DNA of 64,000 bases from Elusimicrobiota bacterium (GCA_028868375.1 JAGWUP010000002.1:193015-257014); one strand, 5' to 3'. Shown: positions 43,534 through 61,088, counted from the stretch's first letter. The notes: generated by a model from the sequence alone, not told the origin. A program made the numbers and translations.

Positions 43534-43597
43534 GTTCCTAGTATGACTGAGATGGCAGAAATTATACAGAAACTTAGGACCTAGTGATACCCAGGAC

Positions 43598-44680: not shown

Positions 44681-45244
44681 ATGATCAGCACATCCGAATT
44701 CCACAACGGCCTCGTTTTCGAGGACGAGGGCCAGTTCTGGGAGATCCTGCAGTATCAGCATCACCGCAAGTCCCAGTCCGCCGCGGTCTACCGCACGACG
44801 TTGCGCTCCCTGCAGACCGGCAACGTCGTCGAGAGGTCCTACGCCTCCGGCACGAAGTTCCGCGAGGTGCCGGTGACCAAGCGCGAGAAGATCTACAGCT
44901 ATGACGAGGGCGCCAACGCAGTCTTCATGGACCAGGAGACCTACGATCAGGTCTCCTATCCCAAGGAAAAGCTGGGGGGGCAGGCGAAGTTCCTGCAGGA
45001 GAACATGGAGGTGCTGGGCGTCTACGTCGACGGCAAGCTGACCTCCATCGAGCTGCCGGCCAACGTCGTGCTCGAGGTGTCCTCGACGGTGCCCGGGGTC
45101 AAGGGCGACTCCGTTTCCAACATGACCAAGCCGGCGACGCTCTCGACCGGCCTGGAGATAGCGGTGCCTCTTTTCGTCAAGGAGGGCGACAAGATCCGGG
45201 TCGACACGCGCACCAGCCAGTACGTCGAGCGCGTCAAGGCCTGA
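44681..45244 (+). CDS. efp: Elongation factor P
   Basis: Length of 187 aa with the three-domain EF-P pattern (FHNGLVFEDEGQFWEIL ... KTSKV-like loop region ... C-terminal OB). It aligns along its length with E. coli EF-P from memory. Confidence 0.8.
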   Translation: MISTSEFHNGLVFEDEGQFWEILQYQHHRKSQSAAVYRTTLRSLQTGNVVERSYASGTKFREVPVTKREKIYSYDEGANAVFMDQETYDQVSYPKEKLGGQAKFLQENMEVLGVYVDGKLTSIELPANVVLEVSSTVPGVKGDSVSNMTKPATLSTGLEIAVPLFVKEGDKIRVDTRTSQYVERVKA

Positions 45245-45286: not shown

Positions 45287-46003
45287 ATGATCAAGGCCGT
45301 CATCTTCGACATCGACAACACCCTGACCGACTTCATGAAGATGAAGCGGGCGGCGGTGGATTCGGCGGTGGAGGGGATGATCGACGCCGGGCTCAAGGTC
45401 GAGAAGACCGCGATGGTCGAGAAGATCTTCGACCTATACTGGAAAGAAGGCGTCGAGGACCAGAAGATATTCGACAAGGTCCTGGCCAAGGAGTTCGGCG
45501 GCATCGACTACAAGGTGCTGGCGGCCGCCATCATCGGCTACCGGCGCGCCAAGGCCGGGACGATGGCCCTCTATCCCCACGTCGGCTTGACCCTGGCCGA
45601 GCTGATGAAGATGGGCATCCGCATCGTGGTCGTCAGCGACGCGCCGCGCCTGGAGGTCTGGCTGCGCATCGTCAGCCTCGGCTTGCAGCACTCCTTCGAC
45701 CGCGTGATCACCTCCGAGGACACCGGCTTTAAGAAGCCCAACCCCGCCCCGTTTCGCAAGGCCCTGGAGGCGCTGGGCACCAAGCCGCGGGAGACGCTGA
45801 TGGTGGGCGACTGGGCGGAGCGGGACATGGCGGGGGCGAGGGCCTTGGGCATTCGCACCGCCTGGGCCAAGTACGGCGACACCTTCGACACCAAGGAGGC
45901 CGGCGCCGAGTTCGAGTTGGACGACATCTCACAACTGGTCGGGATCATCCGCTCCGAGAACGCCGGCAAGCCGCGGCGGGCCAAGGCGGCCGCGTCCCGG
46001 TGA
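45287..46003 (+). CDS. HAD-superfamily hydrolase
   Basis: Motif I VIFDIDNTL (DxD), motif II VVVSD, motif III K (FKKPNP) and motif IV MVGDWAERD. Confidence 0.7.
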   Translation: MIKAVIFDIDNTLTDFMKMKRAAVDSAVEGMIDAGLKVEKTAMVEKIFDLYWKEGVEDQKIFDKVLAKEFGGIDYKVLAAAIIGYRRAKAGTMALYPHVGLTLAELMKMGIRIVVVSDAPRLEVWLRIVSLGLQHSFDRVITSEDTGFKKPNPAPFRKALEALGTKPRETLMVGDWAERDMAGARALGIRTAWAKYGDTFDTKEAGAEFELDDISQLVGIIRSENAGKPRRAKAAASR

Positions 46004-47670
46004 GAAAGCTGCTGGCCGTCCTGGCCGCCGCGAGCCTCGCGGCCCAGCCCGCCCTCGCCTTCAAGATCGAGCGCCTGTCTCGTCCGTCCGTCGCCGGAGC
46101 CGCCGGGGCCGCCCCGATCGAGGTCGTGGCCGAGCAGATCCTGGTGAAGTTCGATCCCGCCGCGACCGGCTCTGAGCGTTCGGCCGCCCTGGCCGCCGTC
46201 CGCGGCAAGGTGTTGGGCCAGATTCTGGGCTGGACCATCGTCGAGCTTCCGTCCGGCGCCAGCGTCGTTGCCGCCCTGGCCGTCGCTCGGGGCATGCCGG
46301 GCGTGTCGGCGGCTTCCCCCAACCATGTCTTTCGGCCCCTGGCCGTGCCGAACGATCCCGCGGTGCCGTCGCAGTACTCCTTGCAGCAGGTCAACGCCTT
46401 CGCCGGCTGGGAGTACGAGCGCGGCTATTCCAACAAGGTCACCGTCGTCATCATCGACTCCGGCATCGACGCGACTCATCCGGACTTAAGCGGCAAGCTG
46501 GGCTGGACGGCGGCGAGCGCGGTCAAGCACCAGTCCGTCGACAACAACACCGGGGCGCTGACCGCCGAGGCTTCCCCGACCGCCAGCTGCCTGCACGGCA
46601 CGCAGGTGGCCAGCGTCGCCGCGGCCTCCACCGACAACTCACAGGGCATCGCCGGCATGTCCTGGGGGGCGCAGCTTTTGTCGCTGAAGGTGTTCAACAC
46701 GGCCGGCTGCAACGGGCCGACGCAGGAATGCGGTTGCGCCACCACCGACACCGCGATCGCCTCGGCGCTCGACTACGTCGCCAACACCGTGGCCGCCCCG
46801 GCCAACGCCGCCGCCGTGGGCAGGATCGTCGTCAACATGAGCCTGGGCGGCCCGGGGGCTTGCGGCGTCAACCCCCTGACCGAGACCGCGCTCAAGAACC
46901 TGCAGGCCAAGGGCGTGCCGGTGGCCATCGCCTCCGGCAACGCGCCCTTCTGCTCGGATCCGAATGCCGACGGCACCGGGGTCGACTCGCCGGCCAACTG
47001 CGCCGGCGTGGCGGCGCCGGACGGCATCATCCCGGTGGGGGCCACGGACGCCGCCGACGACGTCACCTCATACTCCTGCACCGGCCCGGAGCTGGCAAAG
47101 CACGGCCTGGTGGCTCCGGGGGACAGGGTGGCGGTGGACACGCCGGGCGGCGGAACGACCACCGATTCCGGGACCTCCTTCGCCGCGCCGCACGTGGCCG
47201 GCCTGGCGGCGCTGATGCTCTCGGCCAAGCCGGGGCTGACCACGGGCGACGTGGAGACCTCCCTGCGCGGGGGCGCCGACTCGATCGGCGGCGCCGCGGT
47301 GGCGGCGCTGGGCGCTCGGCCCTCCGGCAACGTCACCGGCGCGGGCCGCATGGACGCCTTCCGCTCCCTGCGCTTGGCCATCAAGGGCACCCTGGCGGAC
47401 TATCAGGGCGACCAGAAGGCCATCGCTTTCCCCAATCCTTTCCGGTTGTCGCAGACCGGCAGCGTCGCCTTCTCGGTGCCGCTGTCCCTGCAGGCGCCCG
47501 GCGCCACGATCAAGATCTACACGATGGACGGCGTGCTGGTGCGCACCTTGTCGGGCCTGACCTGGGACGCCAAGAACGACTCCGGCAGCCTTGTGGCCTC
47601 CGGCGTCTACATTTTCCTGCTGACCACCGACGCCGGCTCCACGCGGGGACGCCTCGCCGTGATCCGTTGA
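46000..47670 (+). CDS. Subtilisin-like serine protease (S8) with a C-terminal FlgD-Ig/T9SS-type sorting domain
   Basis: Signal peptide. Asp (VVIIDSGIDATHPDL), His (HGTQVASVAA) and Ser (GTSFAAPHVAGLAALM) catalytic motifs. The C-terminal ~80 aa (AFPNPFR ... IKIYTMDGVLVRTL ... ASGVYIFLLT) matches the Por/FlgD-Ig CTD pattern (YPNPF ... GVY). Confidence 0.8.
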   Translation: MRKLLAVLAAASLAAQPALAFKIERLSRPSVAGAAGAAPIEVVAEQILVKFDPAATGSERSAALAAVRGKVLGQILGWTIVELPSGASVVAALAVARGMPGVSAASPNHVFRPLAVPNDPAVPSQYSLQQVNAFAGWEYERGYSNKVTVVIIDSGIDATHPDLSGKLGWTAASAVKHQSVDNNTGALTAEASPTASCLHGTQVASVAAASTDNSQGIAGMSWGAQLLSLKVFNTAGCNGPTQECGCATTDTAIASALDYVANTVAAPANAAAVGRIVVNMSLGGPGACGVNPLTETALKNLQAKGVPVAIASGNAPFCSDPNADGTGVDSPANCAGVAAPDGIIPVGATDAADDVTSYSCTGPELAKHGLVAPGDRVAVDTPGGGTTTDSGTSFAAPHVAGLAALMLSAKPGLTTGDVETSLRGGADSIGGAAVAALGARPSGNVTGAGRMDAFRSLRLAIKGTLADYQGDQKAIAFPNPFRLSQTGSVAFSVPLSLQAPGATIKIYTMDGVLVRTLSGLTWDAKNDSGSLVASGVYIFLLTTDAGSTRGRLAVIR

Positions 47671-47765
47671 GGCGGGCGGGAGATTCGGCGGGAGGCGCTG
47701 GCGGTTGTGGCTTCGCTGCCCACTTATTACAATTGGTGACCGTGAAGGCACGCTTTACTTACACG

Positions 47766-48086
47766 ATGAGGGCGGATGAGGGGCGCTCGCGCGCGCGCGG
47801 GCTTTTGGGGCGCTCAGGCCTGGGCAGCGGGGAGGGCTTGCTCATCACCTTGGGCTTCGCCTCGCGCCTGGTGCCCTGCCCGACGATCCACACCCTGTTC
47901 ATGAAATTTCCGATAGACGCCCTGTTCTTGGACGGGCAGTGGCGCGCGGTGCACGTCGTCGAGAACATGCCGCCGTGGCGCTTCTCGGCCTGGGTGCCGA
48001 GCGCGCGCAGCGTCCTGGAGCTGCCGGCCGGAACCCTGCGCGGGACGGTCAGGGCGGGAGACCAAGTGGAGGTCCGCGCGGCGTGA
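47766..48086 (+). CDS. DUF192-family protein (putative)
   Basis: PIDALFLDGQWRAVHVVENMPPW...SVLELPAGT...GDQVEV matches the DUF192 pattern. The start is uncertain; a GTG at 47736 is also possible. Confidence 0.45.
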   Translation: MRADEGRSRARGLLGRSGLGSGEGLLITLGFASRLVPCPTIHTLFMKFPIDALFLDGQWRAVHVVENMPPWRFSAWVPSARSVLELPAGTLRGTVRAGDQVEVRAA

Positions 48087-49660
48087 GCGGCGAGGAAGAG
48101 CGGTTTAAGACCAGCAGCGGCATCGAGGTCGGGCGCTATTACGGACCCGACACCGTCCCGGCCGCCGATCCGGGAGAGCCCGGGAGCTTTCCCTTCACGC
48201 GCGGGGTCCAGAAGACGATGTACCGCGGCCGGTTGTGGACGATGCGCCAGTACGCCGGCTTCGGCACGGCGGAGGAGACCAACCGGCGCTTCCGCTGGCT
48301 GTTGGAGCAGGGGCAGACAGGCTTGTCGACGGCCTTCGACCTGCCCACCCAGATGGGCTTGGACGCGGACGATCCGCGCGCCGCCGGGGAGGTCGGGCGG
48401 GTCGGCGTGCACGTCGGCACGCTGGCGGACATGGAGACCCTGTTCGATTCGATTCCCCTGGAGCAGGTTTCCACCTCTCTTACGATCAACGCGACGGCCA
48501 TGGTGCTGCTGGCGCTCTACGTCGCCGTGGCCAAGCGGCGCGGCGTCGCCTTGGAGCAGCTTCGCGGCACGCTGCAGAACGACATCCTCAAGGAGTTCAT
48601 GGCGCGCGGCACCTATATCTTTCCGGTCAAGCCCAGCCTGCGCCTGGCCGCCGACACGATGGAATGGTCCCTGGGCCACCTGCCGCGCTTCAACCCGATC
48701 TCGATCTCCGGCTATCACATTCGCGAGGCCGGCAGCGACGCCGTCCAGGAGCTGGCCTTCACATTCGGCGACGCCGAGGCCTATTTGAAGGAGCTGCTTA
48801 GCCGCGGGCTGGCCATCGACGAGATCGGCCCCCGCCTGGCCTTCTTCTTCGGCTGCCACAACCATTTCCTGGAGGAGATCGCGAAGTTCCGGGCCGCCCG
48901 GCGCGTCTGGGCCCGCATCATGCGGGACGGTTTCGGCGCCCGGCAGCCGCGCTCGCAGACCCTGCGCTTCCACGTGCAGACCTGCGGCTCGACCTTGACC
49001 AGCCAGCAGCCCCGCAACAACGTCATCCGCGTGGCGCTGCAGGCGATGGCGGCGGTGCTGGGAGGCGCGCAGTCGCTGCACACCAACGCCTTCGACGAGG
49101 CCCTGGCCCTGCCCAGCGAGGAATCGGCGCGGCTGGCGCTGCGCACCCAGCAGATACTCGCCTGCGAGACGGGCGTGGCCGACACCGTCGATCCGGTCGG
49201 CGGCGCCTACGCGATCGAGAGCCTGACCGACGAGCTGGAGCGCCGCGTGGAGGAGAAGCTCTCCCGCATCCGCGCCGAGGGCGGCATGGTCGGCTTGATC
49301 GAGCGCGGCTTGCCGCAGGCCGAGATCCAGGAGAAGGCCTACGAGCATGCCCGCGGCGTGGAGTCCGGCCGGCGCGTCGTGGTGGGCGTCAACGCCTTCG
49401 CGCTCGAGGACGGCGCCGGCGGGGCGGCCGCTTCCTTGCGGGTCTCCCCGGAGCTGGAGGCGCGTCAGCTCGAGCGCTTGAAGGACTTCAAGGCGTCCAG
49501 GGACGGCCGCGCGGCCCGCTCGGCGCTCGACGCCTTGGCGGAGGCCGCCGGCTCCAAGGAGAATTTGTTTCCCTTGGTCTTGCGCTGCGTGGAAAAGGCC
49601 GCTACCCTGGGGGAGATTTGCGCGGTCTTGCGGAAGCGCTTCGGAGGTTATGGCGGTTAA
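48083..49660 (+). CDS. Methylmalonyl-CoA mutase family, catalytic (TIM-barrel) subunit without B12 domain
   Basis: [55 protein letters not shown] is the MCM substrate-binding barrel signature. The GTG start overlaps the upstream stop (GTGA). The B12-binding module is encoded separately at 52531. Confidence 0.8.
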
Positions 49661-51461
49661 AGGCTTGCGGCGGCACAAGACGGTGGCGGAGATACTATCC
49701 GGCAGAGGGCTCCTGAGCGAGGACCAGCTCAAGGAGGCGGACGCCAACGCCCGCAAGAACGGCAAGCCGCTGCAGCAGGCCGTCCTCGACGCCAATTTCG
49801 TCGGCAAGAGCGTATTGCTCAAGGCCCTCTCGGAGGAATGGCAGGTCAAGGCCGTCGACTTAGACCAGATGGAGATCGACGCCGAGATCGTCAAGATCAT
49901 TCCGGAGGCGGTGGCGCGGCGCCATCGCGCCGTGCCCTTCGCCAAGGAGGAGAGCACCCTCTTCGTCGCGATGGCGGACCCCCGCGACTTCTTCGTGTCC
50001 GAGGACCTCCAACTGCGCACCGGCCTCTCCATCCAGCCCTACCTGGCGATCCCGCAGGACGTGCGCTCGGCCATAGACGGGGCCTATGGAAACATGGCCG
50101 GGGAGGTGGTCCACAAGCTGATCCAGGACGTCGTCGACAAGCAGGCGGGGCCGGAGCTTGTCGTGGATTCCGGCGTCGAGCTGCGCCAGGAGCAGGAGAA
50201 GAAGGCGGAGATCACGGAGGTCGACGCCTCCGCGCCGGAGGTCGAGAAGATCGTCAACGCCGTCATCCTGGGCGCCCTCTCGATGAAGGCCTCCGACATC
50301 CACATCGAGCCCTTCGAGGATCCGGCGGGCAAGCTCTCGAAGATACTCCTGCGCTACCGCGTCGACGGCCAATTGGTTCCCGGGCCCTTCACCGTGCCGT
50401 GGTCCTACCGGCACGCGGTCTCGGCCAAGATCAAGATCATGACCAACTCGATGAACATCACCGAGCGCAGGGTTCCGCAGTCGGGCCGCATCCAGCTGCT
50501 GGCGCAGGGCGATCCGATCGAGTTTCGCGTCGAGATGGTGCCGACCGTCTACGGCGAGTCCTGCGTGATGCGCATCCTCGACCGCAAGAGCGTCCAGGTC
50601 GACATCATGAAGATGGGATTCTTGAAGGACACCCTCGACAAATTCCTGAGCCTGCTCAAGGGAATCGGCGGCAAGAAGAACTTCGGCTTGATCCTGGTCT
50701 GCGGTCCCACCGGCTCGGGCAAGTCCACGACCCTCTACGCGGCCCTCAACCACGTCAATCGGCCGGACATCAAGATCCTGACCGCGGAGAACCCGGTCGA
50801 GTACAATCTCGACGGCATCGTGCAGGTTCCGGTCAACCCGGACCTGAAGCTGGGGGAGGGCAAGAAGTTCGATTTCGCCACCGCCCTGCGCTCCTTTTTG
50901 CGGCTGGACCCGGACGTCATCATGGTCGGCGAGATCCGCGACGAGGAGACGGCCCATATCGCGATGGAGGCGGCGATGACGGGGCATTTGGTCTTCTCGA
51001 CCCTGCACACCAACGACTCCAGCTCCGCGATCTCGCGCCTGGCGGACATGGGGCTGCCGGCCTTCATGGTGGCCACCACGGTCAAGGCGGTCCTGGCCCA
51101 GCGCCTCTCGCGCCGCCTCTGCGCCGACTGCAAGATCGCGCACGACCCGACGCCGGAGGAGGTGCAGATCTTCAAGCTCAACGGCGTCTCCCTGCCCTCC
51201 GCCCAGAAGATCTACGGCCCTCCGCCAGACGGCGGCTCCTGCGCGGGCTGCAAGGGCTTGGGCTTCCGCGGGAGGGTGGGCCTGCACGAGCTGCTGGTGA
51301 TGAGCGATGCGCTGCGCGGCCTCTGCCTTAAGGACGTCGCGGCAGACCCGCTGCGCGAGCAGGCGCGCAAGGAAGGGCTGCGCTTGATCGTCCAGGACGG
51401 GCTTGAGAAGGTCAAGCTCGGATTGACGACCGTGCGCGAGGTCCTGGGGGGAACGGAATGA
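49650..51461 (+). CDS. pilB: Type IV pilus assembly / T2SS ATPase (PilB/GspE family) with an MshEN-like N-terminal domain
   Basis: Walker A (LVCGPTGSGKSTTL), Asp/His boxes (VGEIRDEETAHIAMEAAMTGHLVFSTLHTN) and a tetracysteine motif (CADCK...CAGCKGLGFRGR). The N-terminal GSPII_E_N reads LSGRGLLSEDQLKEA ... AVLDANFVGKSVLLKAL. Confidence 0.8.
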   Translation: MAVKGLRRHKTVAEILSGRGLLSEDQLKEADANARKNGKPLQQAVLDANFVGKSVLLKALSEEWQVKAVDLDQMEIDAEIVKIIPEAVARRHRAVPFAKEESTLFVAMADPRDFFVSEDLQLRTGLSIQPYLAIPQDVRSAIDGAYGNMAGEVVHKLIQDVVDKQAGPELVVDSGVELRQEQEKKAEITEVDASAPEVEKIVNAVILGALSMKASDIHIEPFEDPAGKLSKILLRYRVDGQLVPGPFTVPWSYRHAVSAKIKIMTNSMNITERRVPQSGRIQLLAQGDPIEFRVEMVPTVYGESCVMRILDRKSVQVDIMKMGFLKDTLDKFLSLLKGIGGKKNFGLILVCGPTGSGKSTTLYAALNHVNRPDIKILTAENPVEYNLDGIVQVPVNPDLKLGEGKKFDFATALRSFLRLDPDVIMVGEIRDEETAHIAMEAAMTGHLVFSTLHTNDSSSAISRLADMGLPAFMVATTVKAVLAQRLSRRLCADCKIAHDPTPEEVQIFKLNGVSLPSAQKIYGPPPDGGSCAGCKGLGFRGRVGLHELLVMSDALRGLCLKDVAADPLREQARKEGLRLIVQDGLEKVKLGLTTVREVLGGTE

Positions 51462-52537
51462 GCGCCGGAACGCTGGACGCGGCGATGGCCTTGGAGCTGT
51501 TCTCCATCGCCAACTCGCTTAACTCGACGCGCGATCTCGACTATCTGCTGCAGAAAATCGGAGCGGCGGCGGAAAGGCTGCTGGACTCCGAGGCCAGCGC
51601 GATCATGCTGGTCACCGACGACAAGAAGAATTTGTTCTTCCGGGCCGCTTCCGGCGACAAGGCCGGGGCCTTGAAGACCATGACCTTGCCGATCGGCCAG
51701 GGCATCGCCGGCTGGGTGGCCGAACGCCGACAGCCGGAGCTCGTCAACGACGCCAAGAACGATCCCCGTTTCACGGGGAAGTTCGATCGGGCCTCCGGCT
51801 TCGTCACGCGCTCCTTGTTGTGCGTGCCGATGATCTTCCGAGACGAGCTGGTGGGAGTCGTCGAGGTGCTCAACCGGCGCGGCGGTCCCTACGGCCCGGA
51901 GCACGTCCAGCTGTTGACGACCCTGGCCGGCCTGGCGTCGGTGGCCGTCACCAACACCAAGATCATCCAGGAGCAGAAGAACTTCTTTTCCCACGTGATG
52001 GAGCTCTTGACCAGCGTGATCGAAACGTCCCGGCCGCATATGGAGGAGCACCCCACGCGCTCGGCCAAGCTCGCCTGCGCCGTCGGCCGCCTGCTGGAGG
52101 TCGACGAGTACGAGTACCGGATGCTCTATTACGCCGGCATTCTGCACGACATCGGCTACACCGCCTTCAAGAACCTGAGGGTGTTGGCCGAGCTCGGCGT
52201 GGGCAGCCCGACGGACGAGATGCATCCAGTCATCTCGGCCAAGCTGCTGGAAGGCATCAAGATGCTCGAGGGGGCCATCCCCATCATCCGGCATCACCAC
52301 GAGCGCTTCGACGGCGGGGGCTATCCGTCCAAGCTGAAGGGCGATGCGATTCCGCTGGGAGCGCGCATCCTGGCCGGGGTCGAGGCGGTCGAGGAGCTGC
52401 GGATGGCGGGCCTCAAGGACGAGGAGCTTTGGCGGCGAGCCCTCGCTGAGCTGCGCGCCGGCTCCGGCTCCCGCTTCGACCCGAATGTCGTCGAGGCCCT
52501 CGCCGCGATCGCCGAGCATCCGGAGGGAACATGGTAG
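51458..52537 (+). CDS. GAF-domain HD-GYP phosphodiesterase (putative c-di-GMP PDE)
   Basis: An N-terminal GAF domain ([29 protein letters not shown]) and a C-terminal HD-GYP domain ([10 protein letters not shown] ... [18 protein letters not shown]). The ATG overlaps the pilB stop (ATGA). Confidence 0.75.
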
Positions 52538-52953
52538 GCAATCCGCGAAGGCCGCTGCGCGTGCTCATCGCCAAGCCGGGGCTGGACGGGCACGATCGAG
52601 GGGCGAAGGTCATCGTCCGCGCGCTGCGCGACGCCGGCTTCGAGGTCATCTACACCGGCATCCGCCAGACGCCGGACATGATCGCGGCCACGGCCTTGCA
52701 GGAGGACGTCGACGCCGTCGGCTTGTCGCTGTTGTCCGGCGCGCACATGACGCTGTTTCCGCAGATCGTGGAGGGGTTGCGCCGGAGGGGCCTGGGCTCG
52801 GTCCTGGTGTTCGGCGGAGGAATCATCCCGGACGAGGACGTGCCGCGCCTGCAAGCCGCGGGAGTGGACCGAGTCTTCGGGCCGGGCACGCCCCTGCGCT
52901 CCATCGCCGAGTATCTCAAGGAGAAGCTTGCCTCCAAGACAGTCGCCCGATAG
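52531..52953 (+). CDS. Methylmalonyl-CoA mutase B12-binding subunit
   Basis: Cobalamin-binding motif DxHxxG (LDGHDRGAK) and a Rossmann-like fold ([33 protein letters not shown] ... [13 protein letters not shown]). Confidence 0.75.
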
Positions 52954-53890
52954 CTCCCCCGCAGAGGACTTGGCCCGGCTGGTCTTGTCCGGCGATACCG
53001 GGGCGCTGGCCCGCTCCCTGTCCCTGATCATCGACGAGTCCGGCGAGGCGGACGTCCTTATCCGCAGCTTCTTTCCTAAATCCGGGAGCGCCCAAAAGAT
53101 CGGCATTTGCGGCCCGCCCGGAGCCGGCAAGTCCACCCTGACCGGCCGCCTGGTCGCCTTATATAGGAAGGCGGGCTTGAAGGTCGGAGTCCTGGCCGTC
53201 GATCCCTCCTCGCCGATCTCCGGCGGGGCGTTTTTAGGGGATCGCCTGCGCATCCAGGACCATGCCACGGATTCGGGCGTCTTCATCCGCTCCCTGGCCA
53301 CGCGCGGCATGGTCGGCGGCGTCTCGCACACGATCTTCGGCGCGATCCACGCCCTGGAGGCCTGGGGCTGCGACCGCATCGTCGTGGAGACGGTGGGCAC
53401 CGGCCAGGACGAGGTGGTCATCGCCCGCGTCGCCGACACGGTCGTCTACGTGACCACCCCGACGATGGGCGACGAAATACAAGCGATGAAGGCCGGGGTC
53501 ATGGAGGTCGCCGATCTCTTCGTCGTCAACAAGGCGGACTTGTCCGGAGCGCACAAGGCCATTTCCGATCTTAAGACCGCCCTGGGCCTGGGCCGCGAGG
53601 CAGGCTGCGGCGGCTGGCAGACGCCGGTGCTGGGGATTTCCGCGTTGAGCGGCCAGGGCCTGCCGGAATTGCTCGCCGGCCTTGACGAGCACGCGCGCCA
53701 CCTGCGGGACAGCGGCGAGGGCCGGGAGAGGCTGAAGCGGCAGTACCGAGAGGAGGTGTCGCTGTATGTCTCCCGGCGCGTCTATCAAGACGCCTTAAGC
53801 CAGATGGATTCCCACTTAGACGAGCTGGTCGACCACAAATCGGATCCTCCCAGCGTCGCCGCCCGGATGCTTCGGGGTGGCGCAAACTGA
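52928..53890 (+). CDS. meaB: Methylmalonyl-CoA mutase-associated GTPase MeaB/ArgK
   Basis: P-loop [13 protein letters not shown], a switch region, NKAD (VVNKADL) and SALSGQG (G5). The start is uncertain and could lie slightly downstream. Confidence 0.8.
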
Positions 53891-53896: not shown

Positions 53897-54337
53897 ATGC
53901 CTGACCCCAAATTTCAGTTTCAAGTGGACCACGTCGGGGTGGCGGTGAGGAGCATCGAGGAGGCGCTTCCTTTTTATAGGAAGGCGCTGGGGCTGGAGGC
54001 GGGACACCGCGAGGAGGTGGCCTCCCAGGGGGTGCGCGTGGCCTTTCTCCAGGCCGGCCAGGCCTCCATCGAGCTGCTGGAGCCGATCGGAGAGGAGGGG
54101 CCGGTGGCCAAGTTCCTGAGGCTGCGCGGCCCGGGCCTCCACCATGTCGCCTTCCGCGCCGGCGAGCTCGCCGCCCAGATGGAGCGGCTGCGCCGCGCCG
54201 GCCTGCCGCCCATCGAGTCCGCGCCGCGGCCCGGGGCGCGGGGACACCAGGTCTGCTTCCTGCCGCCCAGGCAGGCGGCGGGGGTCTTGGTCGAGCTGGT
54301 CTCTGGCGGCCCGGGCTCCTTGCCGTCGTCCCGATAG
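53897..54337 (+). CDS. Methylmalonyl-CoA epimerase (VOC family)
   Basis: VDHVGVAV...LEPIGEEGPVAKFL...GLHHVAF match the metal ligands typical of MCE (H, E, H, E positions). Confidence 0.7.
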   Translation: MPDPKFQFQVDHVGVAVRSIEEALPFYRKALGLEAGHREEVASQGVRVAFLQAGQASIELLEPIGEEGPVAKFLRLRGPGLHHVAFRAGELAAQMERLRRAGLPPIESAPRPGARGHQVCFLPPRQAAGVLVELVSGGPGSLPSSR

Positions 54338-54385: not shown

Positions 54386-55963
54386 ATGGCAGAGCCAGCG
54401 CGTCCCCATAAGCCCCGCCTTTCCTCGAAGGCCGAGGCCTTGCGCCGGCGCCGGGAGCGCGCGATGGCCGGCGGCGGAGCCGAGAAGGAGAAGGCCCAGC
54501 GCGCGGCCGGCAAGCTGACGGCGCGCGAGCGCCTGGATTTGCTGCTGGACGAGGGCACCTTCGAGGAGCTCGACCTGCTGGTCGAGAAGCGCTGCCGCGA
54601 CTTCGGCCTGGACCAGAAATACCTCGCCGCCGACGGGGTGGTGGCGGGCTTCGGCCGCGTCAACGGCCGCGACGTCTGCGTCTACTCCCAGGACTTCACG
54701 GTGATGGGAGGCTCCCTGGGCCTGGCCCATGCCCACAAGATCTGCAAGGCGATGGACTTAGCGCTGGAGGCCGGCGTGCCGGTGATCGGCCTGTGCGACT
54801 CCGGCGGGGCGCGCATCCAGGAAGGAGTGGAGTCCCTGGGCGGCTACGCCGAGATCTTCTATCGGAACGTCCAGGCCTCCGGGGCCATCCCCCAGATCTC
54901 GGCCATCCTGGGGCCGTGCGCCGGCGGCGCGGTCTATTCGCCGGCGCTGACCGATTTCGTCTACATGATCGAGGGCAGCAGCCACATGTTCATCACCGGG
55001 CCCGATGTCGTGCGCAACGCCACCGGGGAGACCTGCGACTTCGAGTCCCTGGGCGGGGCCGCGACGCACAGCGTGCGCTCCGGGGTCTGCCATTTCGTCG
55101 CCGGCAGCGAGCACGACTGCTTCCGCCAGATCCGAGAGCTGCTCGAGTACCTGCCGCAGAACTGCCGCGAGAAGCCGGCCGCCGTGATGGCCTCGGACGA
55201 TCCCGGGCGCAAGAGCGAGCTGTTGGGGCGCGTGGCCGAGATGGACGCGCGCAAGTCCTACAAGATCCACGAGGTCATCTGGGAATTGGCCGACGGGCAT
55301 CAGTTCCTGGAGGTGCACAAGCGCTTCGCCCGCAACCTCGTCGTCGGCTTCATCCGCCTGGGCGGAGAGTCCGTGGGCGTGGTCGCCAACAACCCCTCCG
55401 TGCTCTCCGGCGCGCTCGACATCTCGGCCAGCGAGAAGGGGGCGCGCTTCGTGCGCTTCTGCGACGCCTTCAATATCCCGCTTTTGACCTTGGTCGACGT
55501 CCCGGGCTATTGGCCGGGGATGGAGCAGGAGTACAACGGCATCATCCGCAAGGGCGCCAAGCTCCTCTACGCCTACTGCCAGGCCACGGTGCCCAAGGTG
55601 ACGGTCGTGCTGCGCAAGGCCTACGGCGGCGCCTACGACGTGATGAGCTCCAAGCACATCCGCGGCGACCTCAACTACGCCTGGCCCTGCGCGGAGATCG
55701 CGGTGATGGGGCCGCAGGGAGCCGTCGACATCCTCTTTCGCCGGGAGCTCAAGGCCGCCGGCAATCAGCAGCGCCGGCGCCAGGAGCTCGTCGATTCCTA
55801 CGCCAAGCAATTCGCCTCGCCCTACCAGGCGGCGCAGCGCGGCTACGTCGACGAGGTCATACCGGCGGAGGAGACGCGGCCGAAGGTCGTCAAGGCCTTC
55901 CGTTTCCTCAAGAACAAGAAGGTCGTCGGCGTCGCCAAGAAGCATGGGAACATACCGCTTTAG
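54386..55963 (+). CDS. pccB: Propionyl-CoA carboxylase beta chain / methylmalonyl-CoA carboxyltransferase (AccD-family)
   Basis: Carboxyltransferase N and C halves (GKLTARERLDLLLDEGTFEEL ... FTVMGGSLG ... GYWPGMEQEYNGIIRKGAKLLYAY). The protein is 525 aa. Confidence 0.85.
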   Translation: MAEPARPHKPRLSSKAEALRRRRERAMAGGGAEKEKAQRAAGKLTARERLDLLLDEGTFEELDLLVEKRCRDFGLDQKYLAADGVVAGFGRVNGRDVCVYSQDFTVMGGSLGLAHAHKICKAMDLALEAGVPVIGLCDSGGARIQEGVESLGGYAEIFYRNVQASGAIPQISAILGPCAGGAVYSPALTDFVYMIEGSSHMFITGPDVVRNATGETCDFESLGGAATHSVRSGVCHFVAGSEHDCFRQIRELLEYLPQNCREKPAAVMASDDPGRKSELLGRVAEMDARKSYKIHEVIWELADGHQFLEVHKRFARNLVVGFIRLGGESVGVVANNPSVLSGALDISASEKGARFVRFCDAFNIPLLTLVDVPGYWPGMEQEYNGIIRKGAKLLYAYCQATVPKVTVVLRKAYGGAYDVMSSKHIRGDLNYAWPCAEIAVMGPQGAVDILFRRELKAAGNQQRRRQELVDSYAKQFASPYQAAQRGYVDEVIPAEETRPKVVKAFRFLKNKKVVGVAKKHGNIPL

Positions 55964-55975: not shown

Positions 55976-56905
55976 GTGAGAAAAAAAGTAACCGTCGTGG
56001 GGGCCGGCAACGTGGGGGCCACGCTGGCGCAGCGCTTGGCCGAGATGGAGATGTGCGACGTCGTCGTCGTCGACATCCCGCAGGTGGAGGGGATGCCGGC
56101 CGGCAAGGCCCTGGACCTCATGGAGTCCGGCCCGATTCTTGGGTATGATTCGCGCGTGAGCGGAACGACGTCCTACGAGGCGACGGCCGGCTCCGACGTG
56201 GTCGTGATCACGGCCGGCATCCCGCGCAAGCCGGGCATGAGCCGGGACGATCTTTTAAAGACCAACGCGGGCATCGTCAAGTCCGTCACCGAGAACGTCG
56301 TCCGCTTCTCGCCCGACAGCGTCCTGATCATCGTCAGCAATCCGCTCGACGCGATGTGCCTGGTGGCGCTCAAGACCTCCAAGTTTCCGAAGCACCGGGT
56401 GCTGGGCATGGCCGGGATACTCGACAGCTCGCGGATGCGTTCCTTCATCTGCGAGGCGCTGGAGGTCTCGGTGGAGAACGTGCACGCCATGGTCTTGGGC
56501 GGCCACGGCGACACCATGGTGCCGCTGCCGCGCTTCTCCACGGTCAACGGCATCCCGATCACGGAGCTCCTGCCCCAGGACAAGATCGCGGCGATCAACC
56601 AGCGCACGCGCGACGGGGGTGCTGAGATCGTCAAGCTGCTTAAGACCGGCTCCGCCTTCTACGCCCCTTCCGCCTCGGCGGCCGAGATGGTCGAGGCCGT
56701 CCTGAAGGACAAGAAGAAGATACTGCCCTGCGCGGCGTATCTGGAGGGCGAGTACGGCGTCGACGGCGTCTTCGTCGGCGTGCCCTGCAAGCTGGGCGCG
56801 CGAGGCTTGGAGCAGATCGTCCAGCTCAACCTCTCCGCCGAGGAGCGCGCCCAACTGCTCAAGTCCGCGACGGCGGTCAAGCAGTTGGCGGCGGCGTTGA
56901 AGTAG
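55976..56905 (+). CDS. mdh: Malate dehydrogenase (LDH-like MDH)
   Basis: [11 protein letters not shown] (NAD binding), [16 protein letters not shown] (substrate Arg) and the catalytic His region (GGHGDTMVP). Confidence 0.85.
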
Positions 56906-56923: not shown

Positions 56924-57682
56924 GTGCTGCTGGCCGTCGACGTCGGCAACACCAACGTCACCGTCGGCGCCTTCGCGGGCCAAAGCCTGCGGGCGCGCTG
57001 GCGGATGCGGACCGACCCGCAGGCCGATGCCGGGGCGCTCGGCCGCGCGCTGGCCCGCGCGGCGCGCCGGCGCGGCGCGCGCGTGGAGGCCTGCGTCTAC
57101 GGCAGCGTCGTTCCCTCCCTCGATAAAGCCCTGGAGCGGGCGGTCCGCACGAGTTTCGGGGTGGCCGCCGTCGCGGTCACCCCGCGCTCGCCCCTGGGCA
57201 TCCGCCTGCGCGTGCGAGAGCCCCTGCGAGTGGGAGCGGACCGCCTCCTCAACGCCCTGGCGGCCCATCGGCGCGCGCGGGGCGCTGCGGCCGTCGTCGT
57301 GGATTTCGGGACGGCGACGACCTTCGACTGCGTCGCCGCCGGAGGCGATTATTTGGGCGGGGCGATCCTGCCGGGCCCTCGGCTGGCGGCGGAGGCCTTG
57401 CATGAGCGCACCGCCAAGCTTCCGCTGGTGGCGATGGCCAGGCCGCGCCGCGTCGTCGGCAAGGACACGGTGGAGTGCATCCGGGCGGGGCTCTACTGGG
57501 GCTACTTGGGCGCCATCGAGAAGGTGCTGGCGCTGACGCTGCGCGAGCTTGGGGGCAGGCCCAGGCTTTTCGCCACGGGGGGACTGGCTTCCTTATTTCG
57601 AAGGGATTTGCCAGAATCAATGCTGCCGGCGCCGGACCTGACTTTGGAGGGGCTGCGGATCGCGCATGAGCGTCTGCGCTAG
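56924..57682 (+). CDS. coaX: Type III pantothenate kinase
   Basis: LLAVDVGNTNVTVG (ASKHA fold N-terminus), VVDFGTATTFD and the GGLASLF C-terminal motifs. Probable GTG start. Confidence 0.8.
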   Translation: MLLAVDVGNTNVTVGAFAGQSLRARWRMRTDPQADAGALGRALARAARRRGARVEACVYGSVVPSLDKALERAVRTSFGVAAVAVTPRSPLGIRLRVREPLRVGADRLLNALAAHRRARGAAAVVVDFGTATTFDCVAAGGDYLGGAILPGPRLAAEALHERTAKLPLVAMARPRRVVGKDTVECIRAGLYWGYLGAIEKVLALTLRELGGRPRLFATGGLASLFRRDLPESMLPAPDLTLEGLRIAHERLR

Positions 57683-59398: not shown

Positions 59399-59872
59399 CT
59401 AGCTTCTGTAGGAGCCCTTGAAGCTTTTCTCGGCCTCGCGGGCGGTGGCGCGCTTCTTGAGGTCCTCGCGGCGGTCCGGTCCCTTCTTGCCGCGCGCCAA
59501 GCCCAGCAGCACCTTGGCCCAGCCGCGACGAAAGTAGACCTCCAGGGGGACCAAGGTCAGGCCCTTGCCCTGCAGGCGGCCGGACAGGCGATCTAACTCG
59601 CGGCGGTGCATCAGCAGCCGGCGCGAGCGCCGCGGATCCGGGGGGGAGACGGTGGCGAATTGGTAGGGGGGGATGTAGAAGTTGAACAGGGAGAGCTGCC
59701 CTCCATCCAGGCGCCCGAAGCAGCCGTCCAGGGAGGCGCGGCCGCCGCGCAGGGACTTGACCTCGCTGCCCAAAAGGCTCAAGCCCGCCTCGTAGGTCTC
59801 CAGTATCTCGTAGATGGCGCGGGCCTTCCGGTGGGTGGCGACGACGCGCTTGTCGTCGGACTTCGTTTTCAT
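59399..59872 (-). CDS. smpB: SsrA-binding protein
   Basis: Full-length SmpB pattern (ATHRKARAIYEILETYEAGLSLLGSEVKSLR ... GKGLTLVPLEVYF ... KKGPDRREDLKKR). Confidence 0.85.
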   Translation of the reverse strand: MKTKSDDKRVVATHRKARAIYEILETYEAGLSLLGSEVKSLRGGRASLDGCFGRLDGGQLSLFNFYIPPYQFATVSPPDPRRSRRLLMHRRELDRLSGRLQGKGLTLVPLEVYFRRGWAKVLLGLARGKKGPDRREDLKKRATAREAEKSFKGSYRS

Positions 59873-59910
59873 GTAGAATGCCCATTATAGCACTGCCGCG
59901 TTCCGATCGG

Positions 59911-60063: not shown

Positions 60064-60157
60064 TGCGGCGATGGGTGTTCTCTCGCGCCATGCCATGGTG
60101 GCCGCATACTGCTTATTTACCCTTCATCATTCATAGCGTGCCGAAAGGGGGTATAGC

Positions 60158-60595
60158 ATGAGAGGACTCACCAGCAGGAAGCGCACTTCGGGCTTCACGC
60201 TCATCGAGTTGATGATCGTGGTTGCCATCATAGGTATCTTGGCGGCTATCGCCATACCGAAGTTCGCCAGCCTCATCCGCAAATCGAACGAGGGAGCGTC
60301 GAAGGGCAACCTCGGGTCCATCCGTGGAGCGTTGAGCATCTACTACGGAGACCTCGAGGGACAGTATCCCAGCGACATGACTTCCTTGACGATCAACGGC
60401 AAGTACCTGACCGCGATACCGAACGCGAAGGCTCCGAACTACCATCCGGACTCTTCCGCGGTCACGAACCAGACGACATCGGACGACGGCGGCGGCTGGT
60501 CCTACAACAACACGACCGGCGACTCCAACATGGGGACGGTGTGGGTCAACTGCACGCACACCGACACCAAGGGGAGCGTCTGGACGACGTACTAA
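60158..60595 (+). CDS. pilA: Type IV pilin (PilA-like) paralog 1
   Basis: Class III signal and N-methylation motif (RKRTSGFTLIELMIVVAIIGILAAIAIPKF) with a conserved E5. The C-terminus reads VWVNCTHTDTKGSVWTTY. Lower GC than the surroundings. Confidence 0.8.
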   Translation: MRGLTSRKRTSGFTLIELMIVVAIIGILAAIAIPKFASLIRKSNEGASKGNLGSIRGALSIYYGDLEGQYPSDMTSLTINGKYLTAIPNAKAPNYHPDSSAVTNQTTSDDGGGWSYNNTTGDSNMGTVWVNCTHTDTKGSVWTTY

Positions 60596-60626
60596 GCTAA
60601 TCGGGTCCTATCGGGCCCGGACGACC

Positions 60627-60665: not shown

Positions 60666-61088
60666 ATGGAAAGCCACGCCGAGGGGTTTACGCTGGTCGA
60701 ACTGATGATCGTCGTCGTGATCATCACGCTGCTGGCCACCATCGCCATCCCGAAGTTCGCCACCCTGGTGCGCAAGGCCAACGAGGGCGCCTCCAAGGGC
60801 AGCTTGGGGAGCATTCGCGGAGCGCTGTCCATCTACTACAGCGACATGGAGGGCGTCTATCCCAGCGACCTGACCTCCTTGACGATTGAGGCGAAATACA
60901 TGCAGGCGATCCCCCTGAGCAAGACTCCCTCCTATCATTGGGACAGCTCCAGCGTCGTCAACGGCGCCGTTTCCACGGACGCCGGAGGCTGGCTTTACGA
61001 CAACATCCAGGCAGACGCCGCCGACGGCAGCGTCTGGGTCAACTGCACCCATACCGACACCAAGGGCAGCGTTTGGACGAGCTATTGA
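60666..61088 (+). CDS. Type IV pilin paralog 2
   Basis: HAEGFTLVELMIVVVIITLLATIAIPKF at the N-terminus. The C-terminus (VWVNCTHTDTKGSVWTSY) is near-identical to paralog 1, and the middle has diverged. Confidence 0.8.
   Translation: MESHAEGFTLVELMIVVVIITLLATIAIPKFATLVRKANEGASKGSLGSIRGALSIYYSDMEGVYPSDLTSLTIEAKYMQAIPLSKTPSYHWDSSSVVNGAVSTDAGGWLYDNIQADAADGSVWVNCTHTDTKGSVWTSY

What the first reader, a model, noticed from the sequence alone, without database searches (positions are those of the whole stretch)
48083..53890. PilB-like ATPase and GAF-HD-GYP phosphodiesterase translationally coupled inside a methylmalonyl-CoA mutase operon
The gene order is mcm catalytic subunit, pilB, GAF-HD-GYP, mcm B12 subunit, meaB, with 4-, 11-, 4- and 7-nt start/stop overlaps. 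The two mutase subunits are therefore separated by a c-di-GMP-type module: the PilB N-domain shows MshEN-like c-di-GMP-binding repeats (LSGRGLLSEDQLKEA / AVLDANFVGKSVLLKAL), and HD-GYP degrades c-di-GMP. Coupling pilus-motor and second-messenger genes to propionate/methylmalonyl-CoA metabolism is unexpected. It may link motility to carbon source.
Basis: partly seen in the sequence, partly recalled or inferred. Interest (0 to 1): 0.55.

Follow-up and report, generated by a model that had tools for sequence, protein, structure and literature searches.

The report
Pilus ATPase pair inside mutase operon
In many uncultured Elusimicrobia, a pilus-assembly ATPase and its GAF-HD-GYP partner gene sit between the two subunit genes of methylmalonyl-CoA mutase; the order is real and old, but the proposed c-di-GMP and carbon-source link is not supported.

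Summary
The gene order and the 4-, 11-, 4- and 7-nt overlaps are real. The window comes from a high-GC Elusimicrobia MAG.

- **Conservation.** 41 of 80 species-level Elusimicrobiota loci show mcmA-pilB-GAF/HD-GYP-mcmB, and 9 truncated loci are compatible. The 11-nt mcmA/pilB overlap is kept in 40 of 44 loci. This is not a recent insertion.
- **Inherited unit.** The stable unit is (DUF192-)PilB-GAF/HD-GYP. It lies on a phylum-wide backbone: EF-P-HAD-S8 protease-DUF192-PilB...SmpB-pilin-PilD.
  - It persists in at least five clades that have no mcm genes at this locus.
  - It is duplicated as a pair next to a Ser/Thr kinase.
- **PilB N-domain.** It has the MshEN fold, but the polar and glycine determinants of both c-di-GMP motifs are lost. 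It scores 23-27 bits on NCBIfam's motif model (cut-off 38). Known binders score 56-85, and a proven non-binder scores 48.
- **HD-GYP domain.** It resembles PmGH but is atypical: the D183 and K225 equivalents are replaced. In a crown clade of 22 species it has lost five metal ligands yet stays conserved.
- **Mutase.** It is a true methylmalonyl-CoA mutase (Tyr/Arg specificity residues).

Most likely two unrelated modules are interleaved in one compact operon, with the GAF protein acting as a cNMP-responsive partner of PilB. Interest is moderate to low.

The parts
44681..45244 (+). EF-P; first gene of the co-directional array and part of the phylum-wide backbone
   Evidence: Pfam EFP_N/EFP/Elong-fact-P_C. 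Same position in L079 and L082.
45287..46003 (+). HAD-family hydrolase; overlaps the next gene by 4 nt
   Evidence: ORF list. HAD Pfam hits in the syntenic genes of L079 and L082.
46000..47670 (+). Subtilisin-like S8 protease with an N-terminal prodomain and a C-terminal FlgD-Ig-like region; conserved upstream neighbour
   Evidence: Pfam Peptidase_S8 4e-37. Found upstream in most of the 80 loci.
47742..48086 (+). DUF192 protein (start uncertain: 47733/47742/47766). Conserved gene immediately upstream of PilB, or of mcmA where present, across the phylum.
   Evidence: Pfam DUF192 7.7e-15. Sequence read. Present in 65 of 80 loci.
48083..49660 (+). mcmA: substrate-binding (large) subunit of a split methylmalonyl-CoA mutase
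   Evidence: Pfam MM_CoA_mutase 4e-208. TIGR00641 699 bits, above the 304 cut-off. RQ-Y-AGF and FMA-R-GTY match the MCM Tyr/Arg pair; HcmA has Ile/Gln at these positions.
49650..51461 (+). PilB/GspE-family assembly ATPase, 603 aa. N-terminal MshEN-fold domain (residues ~1-150) with degenerate c-di-GMP motifs. ATPase domain spans residues 197-599.
   Evidence: Pfam T2SSE 3e-108 and MshEN 1e-20. PilB equivalog 523 bits (cut-off 676) and GspE 471 (cut-off 630). PDB hits PilF, M. xanthus PilB and MshE. Walker A/B, Asp box, His box and 4 Cys are invariant in 81 sequences.
51458..52537 (+). GAF-HD-GYP protein (PmGH-like architecture), 359 aa. GAF spans residues 24-164 and HD-GYP residues 183-344.
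   Evidence: Pfam GAF_2 and HD_5. Best PDB hit is 4MCW PmGH, E 5e-27 over residues 16-344. The GAF is nearest to the cAMP-binding GAFs 5W10 and 1YKD. Residue table.
52531..52953 (+). mcmB: B12-binding small subunit (DxHxxG = DGHDRG)
   Evidence: Pfam B12-binding 1.5e-25. TIGR00640 173 bits, above the 57 cut-off. Motif read from the translation.
52928..53890 (+). meaB G-protein chaperone of the mutase (start codon uncertain)
   Evidence: Pfam MeaB 7.7e-83. TIGR00750 295 bits, above the 241 cut-off. P-loop GPPGAGKST. Junction read.
53897..54337 (+). Methylmalonyl-CoA epimerase
   Evidence: TIGR03081 132 bits, above the 115 cut-off.
54386..55963 (+). Acyl-CoA carboxyltransferase (MmdA/PccB-like)
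   Evidence: Pfam Carboxyl_trans 2e-181. TIGR01117 732 bits, below the 999 cut-off.
55976..56905 (+). Malate dehydrogenase
   Evidence: Pfam Ldh_1_N and Ldh_1_C.
56924..57682 (+). Type III pantothenate kinase; continues the co-directional array
   Evidence: Pfam Pan_kinase 4e-65.
60137..60595 (+). Prepilin-type protein with an N-terminal methylation motif. It has its own strong promoter-like site (60035-60063) and terminator (60627-60652).
   Evidence: Pfam N_methyl 8e-10. Promoter and terminator.
60890..61885 (+). Prepilin peptidase PilD
   Evidence: Pfam A24_N_bact and Peptidase_A24. Syntenic PilD lies downstream of PilB in L078 and L079.

Best explanation
Two functionally independent modules are interleaved in one compact, probably co-transcribed gene array in a large clade of free-living Elusimicrobiota.

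**Module 1** is the methylmalonyl-CoA (succinate<->propionate) pathway. It comprises a split, archaeal-type mutase (mcmA plus B12-binding mcmB), the MeaB chaperone, an epimerase, a carboxyltransferase and Mdh.

**Module 2** is the phylum's conserved PilB-type assembly ATPase of the type IV filament machinery, paired with a PmGH-like GAF-HD-GYP protein.
- PilB sits on an old backbone: EF-P-HAD-S8 protease-DUF192-PilB...SmpB-pilin-PilD.
- The mcm genes lie on both sides of the PilB-GAF/HD-GYP pair, and they are present or absent together.

**Proposed mechanism (inferred)**
- The GAF domain senses a small ligand, most likely cAMP or cGMP.
- The HD-GYP protein then modulates PilB.
- It may do so by local cyclic-dinucleotide hydrolysis in lineages such as this window, which keep the His/Asp ligands.
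- More generally it may act by direct protein contact, since a 22-species clade keeps the gene with a dead active site.
- PilB itself is unlikely to be a canonical MshEN-type c-di-GMP receptor.
- Co-expression with the mutase genes is a consequence of operon history, not of a biochemical link.

**Shown versus inferred**
- Shown: gene identities, motif states, synteny and overlaps.
- Inferred: ligand, protein contact, and absence of a metabolic link.
For: **Gene identities.**

**Backbone.** It is conserved out to the E. minutum-like loci L078 and L079, which have no mcm genes and no GAF-HD-GYP. A pilin gene and PilD lie 8.7-9.4 kb downstream in the window.

**mcmA and mcmB co-occur.** 41 loci have both and 24 have neither. 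Where the contig is long enough to judge, none has only one.

**The pair persists without mcm.**
- The PilB NJ tree shows at least five mcm-less clades nested among mcm-flanked ones.
- In several of these, GAF-HD-GYP abuts pccB directly.

**The pair is duplicated as a unit.** In three MAGs the second copy sits beside a Ser/Thr kinase and small cyclase-like genes, not beside mcm.

**PilB is an active-type ATPase.** All ATPase motifs are invariant in 81 sequences.

**The MshEN motifs are degenerate** across the whole family.

**The HD-GYP domain.**
- The window keeps the equivalents of H189, H221, D222, H250, H276 and H277.
- 22 orthologues have H189Y, D222K, H250L, H277K and D305V. They are still intact ORFs, 78% identical to each other in this domain, and keep the GYP loop.

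**GAF ligand precedents.**
- The nearest GAF structures are cAMP- or cGMP-binding: Lcd1 5W10, CyaB2 1YKD and PDE2/5.
- Tlr0485 is a cAMP-activated GAF-HD-GYP.

**Overlaps are the norm in this array.** 4-nt overlaps also join unrelated genes (HAD/S8 and DUF192/mcmA), so overlap is not a sign of shared function.

**No internal regulatory element.** There is no riboswitch, and terminator-like sites are not above chance.

**Wider association.** 5 of 80 distant GAF/HD-GYP loci from metagenomes also have a PilB-family gene within a few kb, three of them immediately adjacent. My rough expectation by chance is about 0.5.
Against: - The interleaved order and even the exact 11-nt overlap have been kept over a divergence of PilB down to ~63-67% identity. 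No genome brings mcmA next to mcmB. Selection for co-expression could explain this.
- No transcript data are available.
- No binding or activity data are available. A degenerate MshEN motif could still bind a nucleotide: PilF GSPII-B and -C tolerate K, L or P at motif position 1.
- The tree is a single-protein NJ tree with a midpoint root and no support values, so the number and direction of gain or loss events is uncertain.
- I could not survey whole genomes for GGDEF, EAL or PilZ genes, or for a second PilB.
Confidence: 0.55

Rival explanations
1. The interleaving is functional: pilus activity and second-messenger turnover are deliberately co-regulated with methylmalonyl-CoA/propionate metabolism, for example by coupling surface behaviour to carbon source or to B12 availability.
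For: - The interleaved order is conserved in 41 complete and 9 partial loci.
- The junction overlaps are conserved: -11 nt in 40/44 loci for mcmA->pilB, and an overlap in 36/45 for GAF->mcmB.
- There is no internal terminator above chance and no separate riboswitch.
Against: - PilB-GAF/HD-GYP persists after the mcm genes are lost in several nested clades, and it is duplicated without them.
- Basal gut-type lineages have DUF192-PilB with no mcm genes.
- The same array also contains EF-P, a protease, Mdh and pantothenate kinase with equally tight junctions.
- No biochemical connection between these families is known (my knowledge; none found).
Confidence: 0.15
2. A canonical local c-di-GMP circuit. 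The HD-GYP enzyme lowers c-di-GMP, which the MshEN domain of PilB senses directly, as in V. cholerae MshE or M. xanthus PilB.
For: - The N-domain has the MshEN fold (Pfam 1e-20; 5HTL E 2e-15), with the correct 24+5+24 register, most hydrophobic positions and an N-terminal basic patch.
- The window's HD-GYP keeps six His/Asp ligands and the GYP motif.
- Position-1 substitutions are tolerated in PilF.
Against: - All six Arg/Gly/Gln determinants are replaced, as are G47 and L29.
- The NF053729 score is 23-27 bits against a 38 cut-off, below even the proven non-binder GSPII-A at 48.
- The degeneracy is shared by all 80 orthologues.
- The equivalents of D183 and K225, essential in PmGH, are R and Y.
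- 22 orthologues have dead active sites.
- No GGDEF, EAL or PilZ gene is seen in the 64-kb window.
Confidence: 0.1
3. The ATPase is not a motility-pilus motor. It powers a T2SS-like pseudopilus or another type IV filament used for secretion, for example of the conserved upstream S8 protease. The 'motility' framing would then be wrong, whatever the regulator does.
For: - The protein scores below the equivalog cut-offs of both PilB (523 vs 676) and GspE (471 vs 630).
- S8 protease-DUF192-PilB is a conserved triad across the phylum.
- No pilT, pilC or pilMNOQ genes lie in the window.
Against: - Its best structural and sequence relatives are T4aP PilB, PilF and MshE rather than GspE/EpsE.
- A prepilin gene and PilD are nearby, but both fit either system.
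- The system type cannot be resolved without whole genomes.
Confidence: 0.2

Closest known systems
MshE / PilB / PilF assembly ATPases with an MshEN (GSPII, T2SSE_N) c-di-GMP receptor domain (V. cholerae MshE 5HTL; M. xanthus PilB; T. thermophilus PilF)
   Same: Same two-part architecture: an MshEN-fold N-domain plus a T2SSE ATPase with Walker A/B, Asp and His boxes and a tetracysteine motif. The register of the two 24-residue helical hairpins with a 5-residue spacer is also the same.
   Different: The Arg, Gly and Gln determinants are lost in both motifs. The motif model scores below its cut-off and below a proven non-binder. The protein scores below the PilB and GspE equivalog cut-offs.
PmGH family of GAF-HD-GYP phosphodiesterases (Persephonella marina PmGH 4MCW; cAMP-activated Tlr0485 of Thermosynechococcus)
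   Same: Same GAF + HD-GYP architecture and length, aligned end to end with PmGH (E 5e-27). HD, H250, HH and GYP are retained in the window. The GAF is closest to cNMP-binding GAFs.
   Different: Substitutions relative to PmGH are D183->R, K225->Y, E185->H (variable in the family), D305->E and D308->E. The R314/K317 'RPYK' element is absent. A 22-species clade has HD->HK and three further ligand losses. The gene is always partnered with PilB.
FimX-PilZ-PilB of Xanthomonas, and RpfG (HD-GYP) acting through protein contacts
   Same: This is a precedent for a degenerate c-di-GMP-turnover domain protein regulating PilB by protein-protein interaction, and for the GYP loop serving in partner binding rather than catalysis. 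In the dead clade here the GYP loop is conserved.
   Different: The domains differ (EAL/GGDEF and PilZ versus GAF-HD-GYP). No PilZ adaptor is seen here. The interaction is only inferred.
Split (archaeal-type) methylmalonyl-CoA mutase with MeaB; HcmAB and IcmAB are the sequence-closest split mutases with structures
   Same: Separate large and B12-binding subunits plus a MeaB G-protein. The best PDB hit is the split HcmA, 4R3U. TIGR00641, TIGR00640 and TIGR00750 all score above their cut-offs.
   Different: The specificity residues are MCM-type (Tyr/Arg), not Hcm (Ile, Asp / Gln) or Icm. The two subunit genes are separated by two unrelated genes.

Membership tests
MshEN-type c-di-GMP receptor | T2SSE_N/MshEN fold at the N-terminus of a secretion ATPase | tested here: met
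   Pfam PF05157 E 1e-20. 5HTL E 2e-15, and M. xanthus PilB and PilF N-domains E 1e-19 to 1e-23.
MshEN-type c-di-GMP receptor | [quoted passage not shown] | tested here: not met
   The spacing is kept. Motif I (residues 11-34) matches 6 of 11 key positions and motif II (residues 40-63) matches 7 of 11. None of the six R/G/Q positions matches. The same holds in 80 orthologues.
MshEN-type c-di-GMP receptor | Score at or above the curated cut-off of NCBIfam NF053729 (c-di-GMP_motif, 38 bits) | tested here: not met
   Window 22.9 bits (full length) and 26.9 bits (N-terminal fragment). MshE 85, Geobacter PilB 64.6, PilF GSPII-B 61.8, GSPII-C 60.5, M. xanthus PilB 56.1, non-binder GSPII-A 48.4.
MshEN-type c-di-GMP receptor | Measured c-di-GMP binding | not testable with these tools
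   Needs ITC or DRaCALA on residues 1-150.
PilB/GspE secretion ATPase superfamily | Walker A, Asp box, Walker B, His box and tetracysteine Zn motif | tested here: met
   GPTGSGKST, ENPVE, DPDVIMVGEIRD, TGHLVFSTLHTN and CxxC...CxxC, all invariant or nearly invariant in 81 sequences. Pfam T2SSE 3e-108.
Type IV-A pilus PilB (equivalog TIGR02538) or T2SS GspE (TIGR02533) | Score above the equivalog cut-off | tested here: not met
   PilB 523 bits against 676; GspE 471 bits against 630. The subfamily is therefore unresolved.
HD-GYP c-di-GMP phosphodiesterase | HD motif, the further His/Asp metal ligands (PmGH H189, H250, H276, H277, D305) and HHExxDGxGYP | tested here: met
   The window has the H189, HD, H250 and HH equivalents, [12 protein letters not shown], and D305->E. 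This is not met in the 22 orthologues with Y/K/L/K/V at five ligand positions.
HD-GYP c-di-GMP phosphodiesterase | Catalytically essential D183 and K225 (the HDIGK lysine), and substrate-contacting R314/K317 of PmGH | tested here: not met
   D183->R, K225->Y (Y in 61 of 66 family members), and no RPYK element.
HD-GYP c-di-GMP phosphodiesterase | Measured hydrolysis of c-di-GMP | not testable with these tools
   Needs an enzyme assay with Fe or Mn.
PmGH family (GAF-HD-GYP architecture) | An N-terminal GAF directly fused to a C-terminal HD-GYP, about 360 aa | tested here: met
   Pfam GAF_2 at residues 24-164 and HD_5 at 183-344. End-to-end alignment to 4MCW. The family is named.
Methylmalonyl-CoA mutase (as opposed to Icm, Hcm or Ecm) | Substrate-carboxylate residues Tyr (RQYAGF) and Arg (FMxRxTY); B12-binding DxHxxG; MeaB partner | tested here: met
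   Tyr and Arg are present, as in human MUT, whereas HcmA has Ile and Gln. DGHDRG is in mcmB. MeaB TIGR00750 scores above its cut-off. The assignment of these residues to specificity is from my knowledge of the family.
Single operon / translational coupling | Overlapping stop and start codons, no internal terminators, and one transcript | tested here: inconclusive
   The overlaps are confirmed and conserved. Terminator-like sites are not above the shuffle expectation. Transcript evidence is not obtainable here.

The most novel reading that the evidence does not exclude
The GAF-HD-GYP protein is primarily a non-catalytic, ligand-gated adaptor that binds the degenerate MshEN domain of PilB and switches filament assembly. 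Its fixed position inside the mutase operon makes pilus or secretion activity track expression of the propionate/succinate pathway. This would be a new way of wiring type IV filament control to central metabolism, independent of c-di-GMP binding by PilB.
Probability: 0.12. Interest if true: 0.6.

Novelty: new variant of a known kind. Interest (0 to 1): 0.35.

Why it matters
Elusimicrobia are almost entirely uncultured, and how they regulate their type IV filaments is unknown.

This locus defines a phylum-specific, strongly conserved PilB + GAF-HD-GYP gene pair. In it, both supposed c-di-GMP elements are atypical: the receptor motif in PilB, and the catalytic site of the HD-GYP domain. In one large clade the HD-GYP site is plainly inactive.

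That makes the pair a natural test case for non-enzymatic, contact-based control of a pilus ATPase by an HD-GYP protein.

It is also a caution against reading function from 'MshEN' and 'HD-GYP' domain labels, or from overlapping genes in compact operons.

The metabolic link that made the finding attractive is not supported.

Tried and rejected
- **Context look-up for the window's own PilB (P0001):** not on record. I used the orthologues P0007 and P0120 instead.
- **Sigma-70 promoter and terminator scan of 44-62 kb:** terminator-like sites are at the chance level. The only strong signals flank the pilin gene, so the scan is uninformative for the operon question.
- **Rfam scan of the whole window:** found only a tRNA-Leu. 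There is no cobalamin riboswitch or other riboswitch.
- **tblastn for GGDEF, EAL and PilZ:** There were no hits. This is a weak test, because all the loci are the same neighbourhood.
- **Metagenome scan with a GAF-HD-GYP alignment:** It gave only a rough enrichment of PilB-family neighbours, 5 of 80.
- **Literature searches:** I searched for DUF192, Elusimicrobia pili and the groundwater Elusimicrobia paper. None describes this arrangement or gives DUF192 a function.
- **Mutase substrate:** I considered that the mutase might be an Hcm- or Icm-type enzyme, because the best PDB hit is HcmA. I rejected this on the specificity residues.
- **Assembly chimera:** I considered this and rejected it because of 50 independent concordant assemblies.


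Full report
**What is there**

The window is from a high-GC (~68%) Elusimicrobia MAG. The PilB-like protein is 100% identical to an NCBI 'Elusimicrobia bacterium' protein, and its 120 best relatives are all Elusimicrobiota.

On the + strand, 15 co-directional genes run from 44.7 to 59.4 kb:

| Gene | Coordinates |
|---|---|
| EF-P | 44681-45244 |
| HAD hydrolase | 45287-46003 |
| S8 protease | 46000-47670 |
| DUF192 | ~47742-48086 |
| mcmA | 48083-49660 |
| PilB/GspE-like ATPase | 49650-51461 |
| GAF-HD-GYP | 51458-52537 |
| mcmB (B12-binding) | 52531-52953 |
| meaB | 52928?-53890 |
| methylmalonyl-CoA epimerase | 53897-54337 |
| carboxyltransferase | 54386-55963 |
| malate dehydrogenase | 55976-56905 |
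| pantothenate kinase | 56924-57682 |
| DUF6588-like gene | 57686-58432 |
| VIT1-family gene | within 57979-59376 |

- DUF192/mcmA: GTGA, 4-nt overlap.
- mcmA/pilB: 11-nt overlap.
- pilB/GAF: ATGA, 4-nt overlap.
- GAF/mcmB: 7-nt overlap.

The meaB start is ambiguous.

**Is it conserved?**

A scan of one genome per GTDB species returned 80 loci, all Elusimicrobiota, with PilB at 61-80% identity. I mapped the window's proteins onto them.

| Locus state | Number of loci |
|---|---|
| mcmA-pilB-GAF/HD-GYP-mcmB, complete (L007 counted after allowing for a masked N run) | 41 |
| Truncated contigs compatible with that order | 9 |
| PilB without mcm genes | 24 |
| mcmA without mcmB, or the reverse | 0 |

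The overlaps themselves are conserved:
- mcmA->pilB is exactly -11 nt in 40 of 44 loci.
- DUF192->mcmA is -4 nt in 30 of 40.
- GAF->mcmB overlaps in 36 of 45.

So the arrangement is old and is not a recent insertion.

**What is the stable unit?**

The unit that persists is not the mutase operon. It is (S8 protease-)DUF192-PilB, usually followed by GAF-HD-GYP.
- The E. minutum-like loci L078 and L079 have EF-P-HAD-S8-DUF192-PilB followed by unrelated genes, then SmpB and PilD. They have no mcm genes and no GAF-HD-GYP.
- The window shows the same backbone, with SmpB (59399-59884, - strand), a prepilin gene (60137-60595) and PilD (60890-61885).
- An NJ tree of the 81 PilB sequences shows at least five mcm-less clades nested among mcm-flanked ones. 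Examples are L001/L016, L042/44/46/51, L028, L045/L068 and L065/L075.
- In several of these clades GAF-HD-GYP abuts the carboxyltransferase gene with a 1-6 nt gap.
- Three MAGs carry a second PilB-GAF/HD-GYP pair. That copy sits beside a Ser/Thr kinase and small cyclase-like genes, not beside mcm.

PilB and the GAF protein are therefore inherited and duplicated as a pair, and they do not need the mutase genes. The tree has no support values and is midpoint-rooted, so the direction of events (flanking gain or repeated loss) is inferred, not shown.

**The PilB-like ATPase**

- Pfam gives T2SSE (3e-108) and MshEN (1e-20).
- Walker A, Asp box, Walker B, His box and the four Zn cysteines are invariant across 81 sequences. 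It is an active-type ATPase under strong constraint.
- It scores below the equivalog cut-offs of both PilB (523 vs 676 bits) and GspE (471 vs 630 bits). 'Type IV filament assembly ATPase' is therefore the safe label.

The N-domain aligns to V. cholerae MshE (5HTL), M. xanthus PilB and T. thermophilus PilF. The published motif is RLGxx(L/V/I)(L/V/I)xxG(L/V/I)(L/V/I)xxxxLxxxLxxQ, twice, with a 5-residue spacer. The window keeps the register and most hydrophobic positions but changes the determinants:

| Motif | Window residues | Key positions matched | Substitutions |
|---|---|---|---|
| I | 11-34 | 6 of 11 | R9->T, G11->A, L29->D/A, Q32->A/R |
| II | 40-63 | 7 of 11 | R38->P, G40->Q, G47->N, Q61->E |

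In MshE, the Gly backbone amides and the Gln side chains make the only polar contacts with c-di-GMP. Any single hydrophobic substitution costs more than 10-fold in affinity.

Position 1 is tolerant: PilF has K, L or P there. However, PilF GSPII-A, which has one good and one 45%-matching motif, does not bind.

I calibrated NCBIfam's c-di-GMP-motif model, which has a 38-bit cut-off:

| Sequence | Score (bits) |
|---|---|
| V. cholerae MshE | 85 |
| Geobacter PilB | 64.6 |
| PilF GSPII-B | 61.8 |
| PilF GSPII-C | 60.5 |
| M. xanthus PilB | 56.1 |
| PilF GSPII-A (non-binder) | 48.4 |
| Window | 22.9-26.9 |
| Orthologues | 0-25 |

All 80 orthologues share the degenerate consensus.

**The GAF-HD-GYP protein**

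Its best solved relative is PmGH (4MCW), the founding GAF-HD-GYP phosphodiesterase. The two align end to end (E 5e-27), and the family is recognised in the literature.

Compared with PmGH's mutational map, the window protein looks like this:
- It keeps the equivalents of H189, H221, D222, H250, H276 and H277, plus [11 protein letters not shown].
- It has E185->H, D305->E and D308->E.
- It replaces the two residues whose alanine mutants are inactive in PmGH: D183->R and K225->Y.
- It lacks the R314/K317 element.
- 'HDIGY' in place of 'HDIGK' is a family trait, with Y in 61 of 66 members.

A crown clade of 22 species, all with the mcm-flanked order, has H189Y, D222K, H250L, H277K and D305V. That is a dead metal site. 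Yet the ORFs are intact, 78% identical to each other in this domain, and keep the GYP loop. This argues for a role that does not depend on catalysis.

In RpfG, the GYP loop is needed for partner binding and not for hydrolysis (cited). Degenerate turnover domains regulate PilB by contact in the FimX-PilZ-PilB system.

The GAF domain is closest to cNMP-binding GAFs: Lcd1 5W10 (cAMP), CyaB2 1YKD and PDE2/5/10. Tlr0485 is a cAMP-activated GAF-HD-GYP. A class III cyclase-domain gene overlaps the start of the paralogous PilB in L048/L081. A cNMP ligand is thus a reasonable inference, but an untested one.

**The mutase**

The best PDB hit is the split 2-hydroxyisobutyryl-CoA mutase HcmA. However, the window protein has Tyr in RQYAGF, Ala where HcmA has Asp117, and Arg in FMARGTY, as in human and P. 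shermanii MCM. With DGHDRG in mcmB, MeaB and the epimerase above their curated cut-offs, and a carboxyltransferase and Mdh alongside, this is a methylmalonyl-CoA (succinate<->propionate) pathway cluster.

**Operon question**

There is no riboswitch. Terminator-like hairpins are at the chance level, and the only strong promoter/terminator pair brackets the pilin gene.

The array also contains EF-P, a protease, Mdh and pantothenate kinase, with equally tight junctions. HAD and S8 also overlap by 4 nt. Overlap here reflects compact packing, not shared function. Transcript evidence is not obtainable with these tools.

**Wider context**

Among 80 distant GAF/HD-GYP loci from metagenomes (24-43% identity), five have a PilB-family gene within a few kb, three of them immediately downstream. 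By my rough estimate about 0.5 would be expected by chance. This hints at a more general HD-GYP/PilB association.

I found no paper describing this arrangement.

**Verdict**

The mechanistic reading, a c-di-GMP module linking pili to propionate metabolism, is mostly unsupported.

The best explanation (confidence ~0.55) is that two independent modules are interleaved in a compact operon. One is a bona fide split MCM pathway. The other is a phylum-specific PilB + GAF-HD-GYP regulatory pair, whose coupling more likely works through ligand-gated protein contact than through c-di-GMP binding by PilB.

It is a new variant of known kinds and of moderate-to-low interest.

Noticed in passing
window 5082-10187 (+) and 10331-17812 (+): Two adjacent giant ORFs of 1701 and 2493 aa with high coding-type GC3. 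They have essentially no recognisable domains: one faint Peptidase_M48 hit in the first and none in the second.
   Followed up: partly
L048/L081 9484-14609; also L039, L041, L066: The second PilB-GAF/HD-GYP copy in some MAGs is flanked by a 175-aa class III nucleotidyl-cyclase-domain gene (overlapping the PilB start), a 424-aa Ser/Thr kinase and a 153-aa cyclase-like gene. The kinase and the 153-aa gene are conserved in all four paralogue loci.
   Followed up: partly
22 loci: L004, L006, L007, L010, L011, L014, L015, L017-L019, L021-L027, L029-L031, L035, L040 (GAF-HD-GYP gene): In this clade the HD motif is HK and four further metal ligands are replaced (Y, L, K, V). The gene nevertheless stays intact, conserved and in the same operon position.
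   Followed up: yes
window 60035-60652: The prepilin gene has the only near-consensus sigma-70-like promoter (11/12 matches) and the only strong intrinsic terminator in the 18 kb scanned. A tRNA-Leu(CAG) lies just upstream at 59912-59998.
   Followed up: no
window 47742-48086 and 65 of the 80 loci: A DUF192 gene is almost always the gene immediately upstream of PilB, or of mcmA where present, across the phylum. No function for DUF192 was found in the literature searched.
   Followed up: partly
window 21206-23560 (-), 18613-21273 (-), 42406-44133 (-): Other signalling genes in the window are a 784-aa Ser/Thr kinase next to a beta-propeller protein, and a hybrid histidine kinase with a receiver domain. 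No GGDEF, EAL or PilZ domain was seen in any ORF scanned.
   Followed up: no
L117 6001-9023, L123 1090-3986, L126 6001-8298: Distant (27-28% identical) HD-GYP proteins from unrelated metagenomes are followed about 500 nt downstream by a PilB-family ATPase (30-38% identical). The gene order is opposite to that in Elusimicrobia.
   Followed up: no
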